Shown one piece after another: positions 32,991 through 55,031 of a stretch of DNA of 64,000 nucleotides; the first letter of the stretch is position 1, and each line of letters opens with the position of its first letter. The stretch lies in the IMG/VR virus record IMGVR_UViG_3300021400_000932; one strand, 5' to 3'. A program made the position numbers and the translations under genes. Source of the stretch: a virus (lineage: Duplodnaviria > Heunggongvirae > Uroviricota > Caudoviricetes). A model generated the notes under the pieces. That model was not told the DNA's origin, made no database searches, and saw only the letters and a list, made by a program, of their open reading frames with translations.

Positions 32991-33422
32991 TTACCCTCTC
33001 GGTCTAAATCCATATAAATCTTTGTGCCAATCAGAATAAGTACCTTTTGCCTCAGCATAATCCATAGCAGCTCTTAGATGTTCTGGAGATGCACCAAACT
33101 TCTCGGATGCTATTTCGACAAATTCCGGAGAGTTCATAAAGTCATAAATATAAGTGTATTTCTCTTTTGTGTCTAACGTTCTCCATAATTCATGTGCGAG
33201 GCTGTAGACAGCATAGGTGTCAATACCATAATCGGTTTTGCCTTTTATGCGGGTATTATAGAAATCCCTCAGTCGTTGTTCTTCCTCTGGCGTCGGCATA
33301 TCATCATAATAGAGAGCTTCATAGTCTGGCTCTTCTTCCTCTACAATATCATCGCCATAGAGGTCATCATAGTATTCGTTTATATAATCATCTGTTCGAT
33401 TAGCTTTGATATATCGGTACAT
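32991..33422 (-). CDS. Leader-bearing acidic hypothetical protein
   Basis: MYRYIKAN followed by a D/E/Y-rich segment. Confidence 0.75.
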   Translation of the reverse strand: MYRYIKANRTDDYINEYYDDLYGDDIVEEEEPDYEALYYDDMPTPEEEQRLRDFYNTRIKGKTDYGIDTYAVYSLAHELWRTLDTKEKYTYIYDFMNSPEFVEIASEKFGASPEHLRAAMDYAEAKGTYSDWHKDLYGFRPRG

Positions 33423-33432
33423 AGTGAGCTCC

Positions 33433-33999
33433 TTAATTTTGACAAATAATCAGTTTACCTTTTCGGGTAACATCTGGGAATATCGTCTGGATTTCCTCCA
33501 GATAGTCAGCGGTCTTTCGATTGAGCTGATATCCGGATTTGGTGGGACCCTCATTTCCCTTACCGGAACCCTCATATACTGTGATGTAAACTGTACCACC
33601 GGATTTAGTCAGTTTCTTGATGTTTTTAAGAACATTCAAACGGACGTCACGTTCTTTGATTACATTCAAAACATTGGAGCAAGTTGTAGTATCCGCACCA
33701 CCATTTTGGCGAATTTCGCGAAGTACTTCATTATTATGTTCGCTACTTCTATTGTATGGGTCGTATACAAGATTAGTAACTCCGAAATTTGCCAAATACT
33801 CAGCTACATTATCAAACTTACCGCCACCATAATCTAAGTTAATGGTGTTAGGCTGAAAGTTGACCATTCGGAAGATTGCCGGTAGCTTTCCGCTGTTGAT
33901 AGATGTATTTCTACTATCAAATTCCTGTTCCATCTCTTCAATTTCGAATGAACCATCTTCGGTTCGGCTGCTTGCTAAAACCTTAAAATGTCTTTTCAT
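33433..33999 (-). CDS. Leader-bearing class I SAM-dependent methyltransferase-like protein
   Basis: LDYGGGK motif I, YDPYN, ADTTTCSNVLNVI; resembles the MTase module of the phosphorothioation-associated methyltransferase family. Confidence 0.75.
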   Translation of the reverse strand: MKRHFKVLASSRTEDGSFEIEEMEQEFDSRNTSINSGKLPAIFRMVNFQPNTINLDYGGGKFDNVAEYLANFGVTNLVYDPYNRSSEHNNEVLREIRQNGGADTTTCSNVLNVIKERDVRLNVLKNIKKLTKSGGTVYITVYEGSGKGNEGPTKSGYQLNRKTADYLEEIQTIFPDVTRKGKLIICQN

Positions 34000-34493
34000 A
34001 TTTGCACCTCATTTATTGATTTAACATAATCTTCAAGTTCTCCGGTATAATCCAGGAGTTCTTTTCTGCTTGGAATCGTTTTGACTTCAGCAAATTTAAT
34101 AGGCCATTTTTCAATCTTCTTTATATTCAACGATTTTTGTGTGCCATTTTTAATGCACATCCGTATATCTTGCATATTGAATATGAAAGCTCGCTGGTAT
34201 GCTGCGAATAGAACAAAACACAGACCAAATACGCCCTTGATAAAAGATTTATCAGACACCTCATTCAACTGCTTGTCGGTTATCATATCGAAATCAAATC
34301 TATCTTGCCATGTCGCTTTTGACTCTATGTAATATTCATAAGGGTATTTGTAGCACTGAAAATCGCAGATATTTGAACTACCGTAAAATCCGGATAGCTG
34401 GTCTACGATTCTATCGAAAGAATATCCATCTTCTTTTCTGTCCAGCCATTCTTTTATCTTCTTTTCGGCTTTCTTGCCTACATCATCGGGCAT
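33996..34493 (-). CDS. RecU-like Holliday junction resolvase (PD-(D/E)XK)
   Basis: CDF..Y......IESKAT...FDF..I...Q pattern. Confidence 0.7.
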   Translation of the reverse strand: MPDDVGKKAEKKIKEWLDRKEDGYSFDRIVDQLSGFYGSSNICDFQCYKYPYEYYIESKATWQDRFDFDMITDKQLNEVSDKSFIKGVFGLCFVLFAAYQRAFIFNMQDIRMCIKNGTQKSLNIKKIEKWPIKFAEVKTIPSRKELLDYTGELEDYVKSINEVQI

Positions 34494-34733
34494 ATTTCAC
34501 ACCACCTATCTTTATATAAGGTTGAAACCCCATACAGCTTGTGTGGCTATGTGGGGTTTCACATTAGGAGCAAACAAATGAGAGGATGTTATACTTAGTA
34601 TCAATTCCTTTTTGGTTTTAATTTTTGTGACTTTGATGATACAGAATTGTTGTATGCATCAATTTTCCATAGAGGCCACTCAGTTTCTGCTTGTGCTTTA
34701 ATTCGGATGTAGCTTTCTGAAAATTGTTCACAA

Positions 34734-35642
34734 TTACCAGTCTTCTTCATCATCTTCTGGGTCACCATCGAAATCAGTTTCAAGATTTAATGCTTCCGCA
34801 AGAGATTCTGCAATCTGGCTTTCATGATTTTCAAGAAATTCATAACTATCTAAATCAAGACCTTCGATTTCTGCATAATAGTCATAGATGTAAATAGAAT
34901 CATATGCAATATCATCATAAGACAATAAATCTTCAAGTTCGTATTGAATGTCCGCACGCACCAGTCTACCATCAGCATATGCATCGCACAGTTCATCGGT
35001 AAATTCCAAATTATATTGATATCTTGGTTCCCAATCTTTGTACTTGCTGATATCTGTATCTCTCGAATCTGCGGAGTTTGGTGCCCAGAAAAATAGTTCA
35101 GGGTCGCTATAGAAGATTCTCGATAGAATTGCATCTGCAATATCTTCCAATTTTCCTGTGTAATCAAATTCATCAAGTTGTTCACGTGCAATTTTATCAA
35201 AATCATCATACATATCCGGAAACTGCTCGATGATATAGGCTACAGAGGGCAAGCAGGTTTCTCTGCCATAACCCTCATAGAATACATCTCCATCGTTCCA
35301 ATCTCGATATATAACCCTCATTATGGCTCGAACCAATTCACCTGCTACAGAATCACACATTCCCTCACTAGGAACAAGGAAATCATATGTTGCTTCAAGT
35401 ATGTCATCTATACTGCCTGTCATCTCACTGAGCTCAGTAATTTTCGATTCCGGATACTTTTCTTTCAGTTTATCTATCGCAGCTTGCTGTTCTGCACGCT
35501 TTGCCTCGGCTTCTTTTCTTTCTTTTTCTTCTCTGCGCTTGTTGCCATAATAATTTTTCAGTAAATTAGCATCACCATCTGGTGCATAAAGCATATCATT
35601 TGGGAGAGTAGCGTCAAAATCAGATTTTATATATCTATGCAT
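34734..35642 (-). CDS. Leader-bearing acidic hypothetical protein (302 aa)
   Basis: MHRYIKSD; LVPSEG...VAGELVRA..R..YR.WNDGD conserved-looking core. Confidence 0.75.
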   Translation of the reverse strand: MHRYIKSDFDATLPNDMLYAPDGDANLLKNYYGNKRREEKERKEAEAKRAEQQAAIDKLKEKYPESKITELSEMTGSIDDILEATYDFLVPSEGMCDSVAGELVRAIMRVIYRDWNDGDVFYEGYGRETCLPSVAYIIEQFPDMYDDFDKIAREQLDEFDYTGKLEDIADAILSRIFYSDPELFFWAPNSADSRDTDISKYKDWEPRYQYNLEFTDELCDAYADGRLVRADIQYELEDLLSYDDIAYDSIYIYDYYAEIEGLDLDSYEFLENHESQIAESLAEALNLETDFDGDPEDDEEDW

Positions 35643-35660
35643 TGGTAAACCTCCACTGTA

Positions 35661-36410
35661 TTAATCTTCATCAATATAGTTCGGATTTGTCCATTCTACA
35701 GACACGTCATCAAAGTCATAATCTTCATCATACACATAAACATTACCATCATCGGAAATTTCGTATGTACACCAGATTTTTTCAGATTCAACTTGATATC
35801 CATTATTTTCTTTCGCAAAACTGATTGCAGAATCTAATTCACCAGTATAGAAATCATCAGAAATTATATTTCCATCTATATCGACAACAGAATATCGTTC
35901 TTCATAATTATCACCAAGAGCATACTTATCAAGAACATCTATTGCATCTTCATTTGTGATATACATAACGATTTCATTAAAATAGAAATCATTATAGCCA
36001 GCCTCTTTCAAGTTATCGCCATTACAAGAGATGTCCCCATTAAATGTCGAATGTGTCCAACCACCACCGATAGAAGTGTCAAATTCCAAATTGCTGAGAA
36101 CTCTCCGGATATCGCCTTCTGTGATTTCAGAAATATCTTCTATGTCATCATCATAAGGGATTAAAGACATTTCCGTAATCTTAATCGGTGTAAGTCCATA
36201 TAGTGTTCCACCATAATAATAAGATTCACTAACTATATCTTCAACAGAACAATCAATATCACATTTAATTGGAATTACCTGATATGTCTGTGAATAACCA
36301 TTTCCAAAATCATCAGTAGTAGTAAATGGTTCTTCTACTTCAAAGCTATTTATCTTTATAGAGTCATAGTCAATGGTTCCTTTTATATTATATCCTGCAC
36401 CTGCACCCAT
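35661..36410 (-). CDS. Highly acidic hypothetical protein
   Basis: 249 aa, D/E-rich. Confidence 0.75.
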   Translation of the reverse strand: MGAGAGYNIKGTIDYDSIKINSFEVEEPFTTTDDFGNGYSQTYQVIPIKCDIDCSVEDIVSESYYYGGTLYGLTPIKITEMSLIPYDDDIEDISEITEGDIRRVLSNLEFDTSIGGGWTHSTFNGDISCNGDNLKEAGYNDFYFNEIVMYITNEDAIDVLDKYALGDNYEERYSVVDIDGNIISDDFYTGELDSAISFAKENNGYQVESEKIWCTYEISDDGNVYVYDEDYDFDDVSVEWTNPNYIDED

Positions 36411-36431
36411 AAGTTTTTACCTCAACTTTCT

Positions 36432-36941
36432 TTATTGTAATCCATACTGATTGAGCTGTTCCTGCCAAGTTCTGTCTGTACCTTTGGCAGTTTCTTGTAA
36501 TTTACTTAGCCACAGCTTAGACCAGTCATAGGATTCTTGAACATCGAATCCCTTGTAATCATCTTTAACCCAGAGCCACTTGTGGTGGAAGATATTATTA
36601 GAGCGTCCGGACCGCACTACCTCACCAGTCTTGGGAGATACTTCTAAATATCTTCCGACATGTGGTTCCCTTGCGGTATCGAAATCGGGACACTCATCGA
36701 ATCTCACATTCCCATTGTTGAATGTGTATCTTATGCAATTATATGAATTGAATAAGTCTGGGTCTACTTCTTTGCAAATCTCTTGTGCTCTTTTCCATCT
36801 ATCCGGCGACATTACATCGGTTGCATAATCTTTATGCAAGTATACATGTCCACCTATAGCTTTACCCACTTTTCCGAACATCCGCATCACTTCGCTGCCT
36901 TTGTTCGTTCTGAGTGGACTTCTTGCTATCACACGTTTCAT
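36432..36941 (-). CDS. Leader-bearing protein resembling the C-terminal module of the phosphorothioation-associated methyltransferase family
   Basis: GK..GG.VYLH...IRY...PDFDT..EP...IFHHK..V..DY...GT...WQEQL. Confidence 0.65.
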   Translation of the reverse strand: MKRVIARSPLRTNKGSEVMRMFGKVGKAIGGHVYLHKDYATDVMSPDRWKRAQEICKEVDPDLFNSYNCIRYTFNNGNVRFDECPDFDTAREPHVGRYLEVSPKTGEVVRSGRSNNIFHHKWLWVKDDYKGFDVQESYDWSKLWLSKLQETAKGTDRTWQEQLNQYGLQ

Positions 36942-36944
36942 AGG

Positions 36945-37559
36945 TTAGTCATCCCACCAATTATCTTCTTCAAGACCGAGATGGTTCATATCATAAATGA
37001 CTTCAGCTTCCAATCTTTCGGCAAGGTCTCTTAGTTCCGGATACATCAAAACATTGTCAGCGGTATCTTCTACGCAGATATGCCTTCCGCTTCTGCCTAA
37101 GAGATAAAGGTCCAGTCCGGTTTCTTCTTCAAATTCTGCCGCTTTAGAAGAAACAAGCTGATAGTATATTTCATCAATTTCCTTATCAGTATATGTGTCG
37201 GTATCCGGAATATTGATTTGATTTAATGTGTGATTATCATGTAACTGAAGATAGGAACGATTGTCCTCTCCATAGTATTCACATTCATCTACAACATTAG
37301 ATAAATCATCAACGATTTGTTGATACTCAGACTTTGAACAGTAAGCATCGTATTCCTCAACAACATCTTCGTATGTTGGAAAATCATCTTCTTCTCGATA
37401 CCACTTATAAATGAAGTCAGGCAATGTATCGTCAATCAAATCAGAACTTCCGGATATAATATCCCCGCTCGGTTTTATGGTATCATACATATCAGGCATA
37501 GCCGGAATACCGGATGTGTTTGTAGCACTGTCAACATCAGACAATGTAATTCTTTTCAT
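36945..37559 (-). CDS. Leader-bearing acidic hypothetical protein
   Basis: MKRITLS...; LYLLGRSGRHICV motif. Confidence 0.7.
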   Translation of the reverse strand: MKRITLSDVDSATNTSGIPAMPDMYDTIKPSGDIISGSSDLIDDTLPDFIYKWYREEDDFPTYEDVVEEYDAYCSKSEYQQIVDDLSNVVDECEYYGEDNRSYLQLHDNHTLNQINIPDTDTYTDKEIDEIYYQLVSSKAAEFEEETGLDLYLLGRSGRHICVEDTADNVLMYPELRDLAERLEAEVIYDMNHLGLEEDNWWDD

Positions 37560-37561
37560 TG

Positions 37562-37783
37562 TTACTCACCAGAACCAGATACTAACTTAGCAATCTTTCG
37601 GATAATACCGCCGATGCCGTTGTTTAATTCATCGGCAATAGAAAGAGCATCCTCAGTCTTACCATCCGCACCAAGTTTCTCGATGCCGGACACGCAGTAG
37701 TCAAAATCATCTTTCAGAACCGACAGTGCATCATCTAATCTTGTGTCTTTATCTTCCGTAGCAGCAGATATAATTCTTTTCAT
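37562..37783 (-). CDS. Leader-bearing small helical protein
   Basis: MKRIISAATE. Confidence 0.7.
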   Translation of the reverse strand: MKRIISAATEDKDTRLDDALSVLKDDFDYCVSGIEKLGADGKTEDALSIADELNNGIGGIIRKIAKLVSGSGE

Positions 37784-37787
37784 AGTT

Positions 37788-38129
37788 TTAATCTCCTAAC
37801 TTATTTGTATCAAAGTATTTATCAGCATTCATTATGACATAAGTATGGGTGCTGTAGTAGGAATCATCATCGCTTTCGCCAATTTCAGTTTCACCAGATT
37901 CTTTCAAATCCTCAGAGAAATACTTATACATCAAATAATCAGCCTGAAGGTGGTCATGTTTCCAGTCACCGTCTACCTCAACAGAAATCCCCACAGTATT
38001 ATCATCTTTGTCATAATCGCTATATACAGATTCAACCCAAACTTTATTATCAGAAAGATACTTGCTAATCTTTTCATCAAATTCGGCTTGAGTTGGTAAT
38101 GTTGAGCTTGCAGATATAATTCTTTTCAT
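37788..38129 (-). CDS. Leader-bearing acidic hypothetical protein
   Basis: MKRIISASST; VDGDWKHDHL motif. Confidence 0.75.
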   Translation of the reverse strand: MKRIISASSTLPTQAEFDEKISKYLSDNKVWVESVYSDYDKDDNTVGISVEVDGDWKHDHLQADYLMYKYFSEDLKESGETEIGESDDDSYYSTHTYVIMNADKYFDTNKLGD

Positions 38130-53780: not shown

Positions 53781-55031
53781 TCAGGCAACCCTTATTCTTA
53801 CAGGCGTGTCCACTTCGCCTCTACTGTATAGGACTGTTAAGTCCACAACGCTACTTTTTCTTAAAATATTCAATGCACCATTGACATCTGCATTAAGTAA
53901 TATTCCGTCAGCAGTTCTGTATAGTCCTCTCCATATACGTGTTCCGCTGAATTTATAAGCCTGCGGATTATCTGCATTGTATACAGGAATATTATCCCTG
54001 TCCCAGAAAGATGCCTGTGATGTATAGCTTTCTTCCTGTTCAACAAAAACAATGCCGTTCAGTTCACAGAGATATTCCAATTTTGAACGCAGTTTACCAT
54101 ACGGAATATTGACAAAGTTCTGTGCATTTTTCTTTTTCATGTGTACATTCTTCTGAAATGTTTCGTTATAGCCGATTACAAGCGTTCCAATATCATGGGC
54201 AATACAATAATCAATGATTTTTCTTGCAGTTTTGCTCATGTAGTCATTGACTCGTCTGTTCCTTTTACCAGCTAAGATTTTCTGCCGGTTTGTTGTTCCT
54301 TTTTTATCGCCCTGCCTATCTTTGATACCTTGCAGTCTTGCATTTTCTTTGTTGAACCACTGATTGACAGCTTTCAGTTGTCTGCCATCAATGATGAAAC
54401 TTCTGCCTTGATTTGATACAGCAGTCACAAGATTATTTACACCTAAATCCAGAGCAAGTGCATTGTTTTTGTTAAGATTTCTCTGAATACATTCAACTTC
54501 ATAAGTATACTGAATTTCAAAGAACCTTGCTCCTGATTTTGGGATGATTCTGATTTCCTTGATATGCTTATCAGCGAGTATTGGCGGCATCTTAAATTCA
54601 ACAGGTTTGTGTGTTCTTTTGAAAGTGTTGGAATATGGCAGAATCAGCTTGTTTTCTTTCAGTCGGACAAAGCCTATCACAAGTGTTGTAAATCCATCTT
54701 TTGGTAGATAATGCGGTAATTTGCAGCCCCCGAAAGAATATTTTCCTTTCTTTGCAAGTTTCAGAAGTCCGAAAAAACTTTTGAATGAACCGTCTACTGC
54801 TTTCAAAATTTGCTGTGCCATGTTAGAATTCAAAGTTTTGTAATTAGGACTGTCTTTCAGCAAGGTGTAATTTTTTTCATAGTTCAGATATTTGCCCTCT
54901 GTGAAATAATACTGACGGACATTGTAGATTGCCTCATTAGCAAGATTTTTTGCTGTATGACACAATTCTCTCAAAATACTGTATTCTTCCTTTGACAGAT
55001 GTTTTACTTGTTGCTTTACTGTTAGATACAT
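53781..55031 (-). CDS. tnpB: TnpB-family endonuclease
   Basis: MYLTVKQQVKHLSKEEY N-terminus, ALDLGVNN, EESYTSQ, NADVNGA. Confidence 0.92.
   Translation of the reverse strand: MYLTVKQQVKHLSKEEYSILRELCHTAKNLANEAIYNVRQYYFTEGKYLNYEKNYTLLKDSPNYKTLNSNMAQQILKAVDGSFKSFFGLLKLAKKGKYSFGGCKLPHYLPKDGFTTLVIGFVRLKENKLILPYSNTFKRTHKPVEFKMPPILADKHIKEIRIIPKSGARFFEIQYTYEVECIQRNLNKNNALALDLGVNNLVTAVSNQGRSFIIDGRQLKAVNQWFNKENARLQGIKDRQGDKKGTTNRQKILAGKRNRRVNDYMSKTARKIIDYCIAHDIGTLVIGYNETFQKNVHMKKKNAQNFVNIPYGKLRSKLEYLCELNGIVFVEQEESYTSQASFWDRDNIPVYNADNPQAYKFSGTRIWRGLYRTADGILLNADVNGALNILRKSSVVDLTVLYSRGEVDTPVRIRVA

What the first reader, a model, noticed from the sequence alone, without database searches (positions are those of the whole stretch)
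33433..36941. Two modules of the phosphorothioation-associated methyltransferase family encoded as separate leader-bearing phage genes
33433-33999 has DYGGG...YDPY...AD.....VLNVI....R...L.....LT, like the MTase module of the bacterial DNA phosphorothioation-associated putative methyltransferase (TIGR04096 family, recalled from memory). 36432-36941 has GK....VYLH...IRY...PDFDT..P...I.H.K..V..DY...GT...WQ..L, like that family's C-terminal module. In bacteria the modules are fused and lie near dnd loci. Here they are split, 2.4 kb apart, and each carries the MKR leader. Inference: co-delivered proteins that mimic or counter PT-linked defence, or modify incoming DNA or a host target.
Basis: partly seen in the sequence, partly recalled or inferred. 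Interest (0 to 1): 0.75.

Follow-up and report, generated by a model that had tools for sequence, protein, structure and literature searches.

The report
Split phage methyltransferase and dependent partner
An uncultured 193-kb gut phage encodes a methyltransferase and an unnamed partner domain as two separate, probably head-packaged proteins; bacteria carry the same two domains fused beside DNA-sulfur-modification genes, and across viruses the partner was always found with the methyltransferase but not the reverse, though what they modify is unknown.

Summary
Observation confirmed. 33433-33999 (A) is a class I SAM methyltransferase. 36432-36941 (B) is a domain with no Pfam family. Both are distant homologues of the fused bacterial TIGR04096 protein: profile probabilities 96% and 98%; B's model matches at TM 0.71-0.72. 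Neither reaches the family cut-off.

Correction: bacterial proteins carry two B copies, and the phage B best matches the intact N-terminal copy.

The link is one-way. All 14 near-complete viral genomes with B carry A (fused in either order, adjacent, or up to 200 kb apart); only 1 of 21 A-bearing genomes carries B. Both genes are under strong purifying selection. The leader is real (15 of 100 ORFs; 0.7 expected) and resembles the inferred cut site of the family's T4-type head protease. Packaging is inferred.

A lacks the catalytic motifs of DNA adenine and cytosine methylases. B keeps invariant K27/H36/H119/K121. Best reading: an injected methyl writer plus an optional A-dependent phosphoester-type enzyme acting on the same nucleic-acid target. 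A phosphorothioate-specific role is unsupported (about 15%).

This scan found the same split pair before in several other phage genomes; the one-way dependence is what this analysis adds.

The parts
33433..33999 (-). Gene A: 188-aa class I SAM-dependent methyltransferase, homologue of the TIGR04096 MTase domain. Motif I D56-G60, D80, motif IV N109-V113 (N112 and G60 invariant in the broad alignment), Q158.
   Evidence: PF13489 28.3 bits, over cut-off; model pLDDT 89 with Rossmann MTase fold, Z up to 12.3; hhalign P 95.7%; dN/dS 0.02-0.03
33973..33999 (-). Basic leader of A (MKRHFKVLA|S), inferred capsid-targeting propeptide ending in an [IV]-x-[AS] cut site
   Evidence: Leader enrichment; same motif enriched in the protease-scaffold protein of relatives with T4-type gp21/gp23; cleavage is inferred
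36432..36941 (-). Gene B: 169-aa alpha/beta partner domain with no Pfam family, homologue of the N-terminal (and duplicated C-terminal) domain of TIGR04096 proteins. Invariant K27, H36, P93, H119, K121.
   Evidence: phrog_16075 E 4e-29; model pLDDT 94.7; Atlas TM 0.71-0.72; hhalign P 98.3%; alignment; both motifs in 320 of 333 homologues
36924..36941 (-). Basic leader of B (MKRVIA|R); family homologues carry the clearer MKRYIRA|A form
33996..34493 (-). RecU-type Holliday junction resolvase between A and B; no leader, not part of the pair
   Evidence: phrog_843 E 5e-16; PF03838 26.2 bits
34734..35642 (-). Acidic leader-bearing ORF of unknown function in the same cargo block; variable between close relatives
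35661..36410 (-). Acidic ORF without the leader, no family hit; kept next to B in close relatives
32991..33422 (-). Acidic leader-bearing ORF directly downstream of A
36945..38129 (-). Three acidic leader-bearing ORFs upstream of B (36945-37559, 37562-37783, 37788-38129)

Best explanation
A and B are accessory cargo of the phage head. Each starts with a basic leader that addresses it to the prohead and is trimmed after [IV]-x-[AS] by the family's T4-type protease; the mature proteins are probably ejected with the DNA (inferred). A is an active SAM-dependent methyltransferase (fold shown; activity inferred from intact motifs and purifying selection). It is not a conventional DNA adenine or cytosine methylase. 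It most likely methylates a nucleic-acid target in a non-standard way (an RNA base or ribose, or a backbone/terminal phosphate) early in infection to blunt host defence. B is an optional partner that depends on A. Its two invariant His and two invariant Lys suggest phosphoester binding or cleavage, acting on A's substrate or product, or restrained by A's mark, as a restriction enzyme depends on its methylase (inferred). Bacteria use the fused B-A-B' form in defence islands that are often, but not always, phosphorothioation loci; the phage pair need not target phosphorothioate.
For: Homology. B implies A: 14 of 14 near-complete viral records (3/3, 11/11, about 12 independent); 49 of 51 KVP40-like records, one lineage; 8 of 11 plasmids by single-sequence query. 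Fusion in both orders: 23 of 36 B-containing proteins of 2000 aa or more carry A within 103 residues of B, 9 as A-B and 14 as B-A; fused forms are scattered on the B tree; adjacent gene pairs occur in many lineages. A without B: 20 of 21 near-complete genomes, with narrow and broad B profiles. Packaging: lineage-specific head tags on both domains (MKR..IxA here; T4-type ..[LI]xE in KVP40.0066/0371 and jumbo phages); polyvalent proteins with LPD38 and ART-PolyVal (PMC5512222); T4-type gp21 and gp23 in three relatives, with the motif enriched in their protease-scaffold (6 vs 1.0 and 5 vs 0.7 expected). Substrate class: nearest solved folds are small-molecule and tRNA methyltransferases; B is also fused to CCA-adding, Pol-beta NTase, KptA, 2H, Nudix and NFACT-RNA-binding domains.
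Against: No biochemical or virion-proteomic data exist. Several A/B pairs lack any leader and others sit on megaplasmids, so packaging is not universal. 13 of 36 giant B proteins show no A domain in the same chain. The nearest methyltransferase structures are tied and mixed (Z 10-12), so the substrate class is not resolved; a protein or small-molecule target is possible. The RNA-enzyme fusions cluster in few lineages and may reflect shuffled head polyproteins. A CCA enzyme is present in only 3 of 12 B genomes. The B to A tally rests on related genomes and a loose profile search.
Confidence: 0.5

Rival explanations
1. Phosphorothioate-specific counter-defence. A methylates the sulfur of PT linkages, masking them from PT readers, and B hydrolyses or removes the S-methylated linkage; or the pair acts as a decoy for Dnd/Ssp complexes.
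For: Bacterial homologues sit beside dndA-E, DptH, PT-dependent nucleases and DUF4007/PAPS-reductase genes. A stand-alone MTase homologue is adjacent to a PAPS-reductase-family gene on a cyanobacterial plasmid. A two-step route would fit the one-way dependence. A has no amino-methylase motif, which is compatible with an S acceptor.
Against: A is kept at 55-75% identity across the gut phage family and occurs in many unrelated phage groups, whereas dnd/ssp genes are in 6.3% of human gut genomes (PMC12914056). No PAPS reductase in 18 phage records. 13 of 30 bacterial carriers have no DndD over cut-off (some have Ssp-like genes or are incomplete). Invariant catalytic-looking residues and strong purifying selection argue against a pure decoy. 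No paper found characterises the family.
Confidence: 0.15
2. tRNA/RNA protection and repair. A methylates tRNA or repaired RNA ends (Hen1-like immunisation in spirit) and B binds or heals RNA ends, working with CCA-adding and other end-repair enzymes against host anticodon nucleases.
For: B is fused to CCA-adding enzyme in dozens of jumbo-phage proteins and to Pol-beta NTase, KptA, 2H, Nudix and NFACT-R. Trm9 and METTL6 are among A's nearest structures. Jumbo phages are rich in RNA repair (PMC7824862). A CCA-type gene lies about 4 kb from B in KVP40.
Against: The CCA fusions are largely one lineage (7 changes for 17 rows, minimum 2). Only 3 of 12 B genomes encode a CCA enzyme. No tRNA genes in the window. 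A lacks Hen1's E-x-x-E-H metal motif (recalled from memory) and matches Bmt2 in only 2 of 37 members at E 0.05. Bacterial neighbours are DNA-defence genes.
Confidence: 0.2
3. A is the only important actor, acting on a protein or small molecule (or consuming SAM), and B is a non-catalytic substrate adaptor or regulator.
For: A stands alone in 20 of 21 genomes. Its closest structures include small-molecule N-, O- and S-methyltransferases.
Against: B keeps K27/H36/H119/K121 across phages, plasmids and bacteria at about 20% identity, and loses them in the second bacterial copy, as expected for an active site. B can be encoded 150-200 kb from A.
Confidence: 0.12
4. Coincidence: two unrelated cargo genes that happen to be neighbours, with only chance resemblance to TIGR04096.
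For: Single-sequence scores to TIGR04096 are only about 16 bits. Three unrelated genes lie between A and B.
Against: Profile and structure matches, direct fusions in both orders and 14 of 14 co-occurrence.
Confidence: 0.02

Closest known systems
NCBIfam TIGR04096 (dnd_rel_methyl), 'DNA phosphorothioation-associated putative methyltransferase', e.g. WP_259213893.1; uncharacterised
   Same: Homologous MTase domain (DxGxG, DP, V[LI]NV[IL]xE, late T..Q) and homologous partner domain (GK..YxH, PDFD..P, HxK, late G..W); the two domains travel together.
   Different: Separate 188- and 169-aa genes rather than a 670-870-aa B-A-middle-B'(-tail) chain. No middle region, second B copy or tail. 16 bits against a cut-off of 150. 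Head-targeting leaders, no dnd/ssp neighbours, and A usually occurs without B in this phage family.
T4 internal head proteins IPI, IPII, IPIII and Alt with capsid targeting sequence and gp21 cleavage (PMC9026906)
   Same: Short basic N-terminal tag on unrelated cargo, T4-type gp21/gp23 in relatives; homologues of A and B in T4-like phages carry the classical ..[LI]xE tag.
   Different: The inferred cut site here is [IV]-x-[AS], not L/I-x-E; the cargo is a methyltransferase and a new domain; nothing has been measured.
Phage polyvalent proteins and P1 DarB methylase-helicase (Iyer et al. 2017, PMC5512222)
   Same: A and B sit side by side inside 2000-6000-aa phage proteins, some with LPD38 or ART-PolyVal; a delivered methyltransferase as an early counter-defence.
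   Different: DarB is a DNA adenine methylase tied to an SF2 helicase and LPD36. A lacks the amino-methylase motif and is tied to B. B has no Pfam LPD match, and term searches of that paper found no mention of this dyad.
Restriction-modification logic (orphan methylases; nucleases that need their methylase)
   Same: One-way dependence: partner always with the methyltransferase, methyltransferase often alone.
   Different: Only the distribution pattern is alike; A is not a DNA base methylase by motif, and B has no match to a known nuclease family.

Membership tests
TIGR04096 | Score of at least 150 bits over the 478-position model | tested here: not met
   16.0 and 16.4 bits; a true member scores 559
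TIGR04096 | Homology of the methyltransferase domain | tested here: met
   hhalign P 95.7%, E 1e-8; tblastn of A hits an annotated member, E 3e-4
TIGR04096 | Homology of the partner domain | tested here: met
   hhalign P 98.3% to the N-terminal copy, 36% to the C-terminal copy; Atlas TM 0.71-0.72
TIGR04096 | Domains fused in one chain with middle region | tested here: not met
   Two genes 2.4 kb apart, also in close relatives
TIGR04096 | Adjacent to dnd/ssp genes | tested here: not met
   Neighbours within 10 kb are RecU, UvrD, SMC-like, SNF2, DUF932 and acidic ORFs; no PAPS reductase in 18 phage records. The window's own full contig could not be searched.
Class I SAM-dependent methyltransferases | Rossmann-like fold with glycine-rich motif I and acidic motif II | tested here: met
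   PF13489 over cut-off; 359 PDB matches at E 0.001 or better; Z 12.3, rmsd 3.3 A over 150 residues
Class I SAM-dependent methyltransferases | SAM binding and methyl transfer | not testable with these tools
   Needs biochemistry
DNA N6-adenine/N4-cytosine or C5 methylases (incl. DarB) | [SDN]PP[FYW] after strand 4 (motif as given in PMC10853773), or Pro-Cys | tested here: not met
   SNVLNV at that position throughout the alignments
Bmt2/SAMTOR-like RNA m1A methyltransferases | Match to PF11968 | tested here: inconclusive
   2 of 37 members at best E 0.05; 19% share in one low-ranked Atlas cluster
T4-type capsid-targeted internal proteins | Shared N-terminal tag ending in the head protease's cut motif | tested here: met
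   15 of 100 ORFs vs 0.7 expected; motif enriched in relatives' protease-scaffold; gp21 and gp23 homologues in three relatives
T4-type capsid-targeted internal proteins | Presence in virions, cleavage and ejection | not testable with these tools
   Uncultured phage; no proteomics found
Known nuclease/phosphoesterase folds (PLD, BECR, ART, 2H, HIT) for B | Structural match to a solved member | tested here: inconclusive
   Fold searches gave no clear match; a family that is not listed is not excluded

The most novel reading that the evidence does not exclude
A and B form a previously undescribed writer-plus-dependent-enzyme system for a non-canonical nucleic-acid methyl mark (on a backbone phosphate or phosphorothioate sulfur, or on RNA). 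B is a His/Lys phosphoesterase of an unsolved fold that acts on, or is held in check by, that mark. Bacteria use the fused form in phosphorothioation islands, and phages inject the split form to mask or erase host marks at the start of infection.
Probability: 0.2. Interest if true: 0.85.

Novelty: new variant of a known kind. Interest (0 to 1): 0.55.

Why it matters
TIGR04096 is a widespread companion of DNA phosphorothioation loci with no known function, and no paper on it was found. The phage forms isolate its two working parts as small, well-folded single domains, and a culturable model exists (Vibrio phage KVP40, genes 0066 and 0371), so the family's chemistry becomes directly testable. 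The one-way dependence tells the experimenter to assay the methyltransferase first and to treat the partner as acting downstream of it or being gated by it. If both are injected, they would add a new class of virion-delivered modifying enzymes shared by gut phages, T4-like and jumbo phages, small phages with giant polyvalent proteins, and megaplasmids. Interest is moderated because the substrate is unknown and the phosphorothioate link is unproven.

Tried and rejected
Complex prediction of A with B gave no answer (score 0.00); this is evidence neither for nor against binding. Fold searches of B found no solved relative (VIA best Z 4.5, Foldseek best E 0.07), BFVD gave one unnamed homologue, and PDB sequence searches were empty or chance-level; this does not prove a new fold. 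My first guess of an ADP-ribosyltransferase or BECR fold for B found no support in these searches. PADLOC: no hit. Atlas feature search of B: only scores under 0.9. No whole genome is held for the window, and ENA/Logan contigs could not be searched whole, so CCA-B jumbo contigs were not tested for A. A B-profile scan of bacterial genomes with the phage pattern found nothing; bacterial members were reached through the Massilia protein instead. The promoter scan over 29.5-39.7 kb was at chance level. Literature searches for the family name, TIGR04096, Bmt2 in phages and KVP40 virion proteomes gave nothing relevant; term searches of the 2024 reappraisal of Dnd systems found no mention of this family. 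The B tree (FastTree, 33 of 192 branches well supported) was used only to show scattered architectures, not direction of transfer. Rejected: chance resemblance; obligate split enzyme; conventional DNA base methylase.
Full report
Setting. The window is part of a 193,432-bp metagenomic phage contig; a 190-kb relative has the same gene order. Shared UvrD, SMC-like, SNF2 and RecU genes tie it to a family of roughly 145-205 kb gut phages. Three complete members of that family encode T4-type gp21 protease and gp23 capsid homologues. A Firmicutes host is an inference from YopX and RecU genes and strong SD motifs.

Observation. Gene A (33433-33999, 188 aa) and gene B (36432-36941, 169 aa) are intact minus-strand ORFs 2,433 bp apart, under strong purifying selection (dN/dS 0.00-0.03 by a rough count). 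TIGR04096 is the best NCBIfam hit of each, but only at about 16 bits. I therefore fetched a true member (Massilia WP_259213893.1, 559 bits) and 62 relatives. Profile comparison gave A vs the MTase domain P 95.7% and B vs the N-terminal domain P 98.3%. Independently, the B model (pLDDT 94.7) matches Atlas clusters named after this family at TM 0.71-0.72. The recalled homology is real.

Correction of the architecture. Bacterial proteins are B-MTase-middle-B', with a further tail in long forms. The two B copies match each other (P 99%). The N-terminal copy keeps GK..YxH and ILHRK and directly precedes the MTase. The C-terminal copy has lost these residues in the Proteobacteria sampled and scores lower in two cyanobacteria. 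The TIGR04096 model begins at the MTase, which is why B hit its C-terminal part. The bacterial neighbourhood claim holds: dndC, dndD and dndB homologues lie within 10 kb in 29, 27 and 17 of 80 loci, many of them truncated, and 17 of 30 genomes have DndD over cut-off.

How the two domains travel. In GenBank phages both hit the KVP40-like Vibrio phages, 52 kb apart; 49 of 51 B records have A, and the two exceptions are 157-159 kb, probably partial. On plasmids they are fused, one gene apart or 11 kb apart. Among representatives of 2000 aa or more that contain B, 23 of 36 carry A within 103 residues, 9 as A-B and 14 as B-A; some of these proteins have polyvalent-protein domains (PMC5512222). Adjacent gene pairs occur in many further lineages. 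At genome level, all 14 near-complete viral records with B carry an A-type gene, up to about 200 kb away; in the broad search all but one of the misses were fragments of 26% or less, and the fragments missed earlier were 74% or less complete. The reverse fails: only 1 of 21 near-complete A-bearing genomes has B, with both a narrow and a broad B profile. So A is the core and B a dependent extra; they are not obligate halves. Caveats: some of these genomes are relatives, and the genome search uses a loose first look.

Leaders. 15 of 100 minus-strand ORFs, including A and B, begin with a basic tag ending in [IV]-x-[AS], against 0.7 in shuffles (pattern chosen after inspection). The motif is enriched in the protease-scaffold of two relatives (6 vs 1.0 and 5 vs 0.7 expected), and in seven of eight family polyproteins checked such a site follows soon after the A domain. 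In T4-like and jumbo phages the homologues instead start with the T4-type tag ending [LI]-x-E (T4 biology in PMC9026906). Different lineages using their own head tags on the same domains is good indirect evidence of packaging. It is still inference, and leaderless pairs exist.

What A is. It has a class I methyltransferase fold with intact motifs I and II. Motif IV is SNVLNV, with N112 and G60 invariant from phages to bacteria. The amino-methylase motif [SDN]PP[FYW] (PMC10853773) and the C5 Pro-Cys motif are absent, so ordinary base methylation of the incoming genome is unlikely. The nearest solved structures are a tie of small-molecule and tRNA enzymes; a Bmt2 resemblance is too weak to use. 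The substrate is open.

What B is. It has no Pfam family and about 1,190 representatives at 50% identity. K27, H36, P93, H119 and K121 are invariant in a broad alignment of phage, plasmid and bacterial copies, and both motifs are present in 320 of 333 homologues. Two His and two Lys suggest phosphoester binding or catalysis; this is inference, since I could not measure their distances. Besides A, B is fused to CCA-adding enzyme, Pol-beta NTase, KptA, 2H, Nudix, NFACT-R, ParB and YafQ domains. This leans towards nucleic-acid ends, but the CCA fusions are mostly one lineage and only 3 of 12 B genomes have a CCA gene.

Mechanism. Most likely (0.5): head-loaded A methylates a non-canonical nucleic-acid position early in infection, and B, where present, works on A's substrate or product or is restrained by A's mark. 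Shown: ORFs, selection, fold of A, homology, one-way co-occurrence, leader statistics. Inferred: packaging, ejection, activity, substrate class, B's chemistry. Rivals are tRNA protection and repair (0.2), PT-specific masking or erasure (0.15), and a protein or metabolite target with B as adaptor (0.12). Against a PT-specific role: no PAPS reductase in 18 phage records, and A is widespread in gut phages although dnd/ssp genes occur in 6.3% of human gut genomes (PMC12914056).

Novelty. These are not members of TIGR04096 by its cut-off, architecture or neighbourhood, but they are its split, head-tagged homologues: a new variant of a catalogued, uncharacterised kind. I found no paper describing it. 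This scan has reported the same split pair in several other phage genomes; those notes are unchecked and are not independent support. The one-way dependence and the tandem arrangement in polyvalent proteins are what my own tests add. Interest 0.55.

Noticed in passing
L105:13108-14322 (KVP40 NC_005083.2 about 226050-227260): A CCA-adding/poly(A) polymerase head domain (PF01743, 58.8 bits) lies in a stretch with no listed CDS next to gp23, about 4 kb from the B homologue KVP40.0371.
   Followed up: partly
L208:10001-13015, L209:10001-12313: Jumbo-phage proteins with a T4-type head tag fuse B to a full CCA-adding enzyme, downstream of a Nudix/ART/hydrolase gene and beside gp13: a candidate injected tRNA-repair enzyme.
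   Followed up: partly
L202:1323-1808, L203:1226-1711, L204:997-1482: A divergent, leaderless B subtype lacking the G of GK and with HNK/HSK for HHK occurs in six A-bearing gut phages, 1-26 kb from A; its C-terminal half resembles the plasmid and bacterial copies.
   Followed up: partly
L113:1909-4527 (residues 690-872): The tail of long bacterial members has conserved His/Asp motifs that look like an M15-type zinc peptidase (as earlier scan notes say); Pfam gave no hit here.
   Followed up: no
L114:7872-9366: Stand-alone TIGR04096-type methyltransferase (132 bits) directly upstream of a PAPS-reductase-family gene on a Chroococcidiopsis plasmid, without a B domain in the same gene.
   Followed up: partly
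P0372 (residue about 186): A second MKR..I leader sits inside a B fusion, showing that leader-bearing genes fuse by read-through into cargo polyproteins in this family.
   Followed up: no
window:31049-31803: Two adjacent small ORFs (115 and 120 aa) look like paralogues of each other.
   Followed up: no
window:42290-42907: MT-A70 family adenine methyltransferase (PF05063), a conventional second methylase, absent from the 190-kb relative's locus.
   Followed up: no
window:46361-50480: Run of YopX-family paralogues starting MRE(I/L)LFRGK.
   Followed up: no
window:43236-44351 and 53781-55031: Two IS605/TnpB-like genes; the second is 91% identical to one in the otherwise distant relative G022, suggesting recent transfer.
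   Followed up: no
L095/L096/L092 (P0267): Small phages fuse B, a ParB domain and a divergent A in one 460-490-aa protein.
   Followed up: partly
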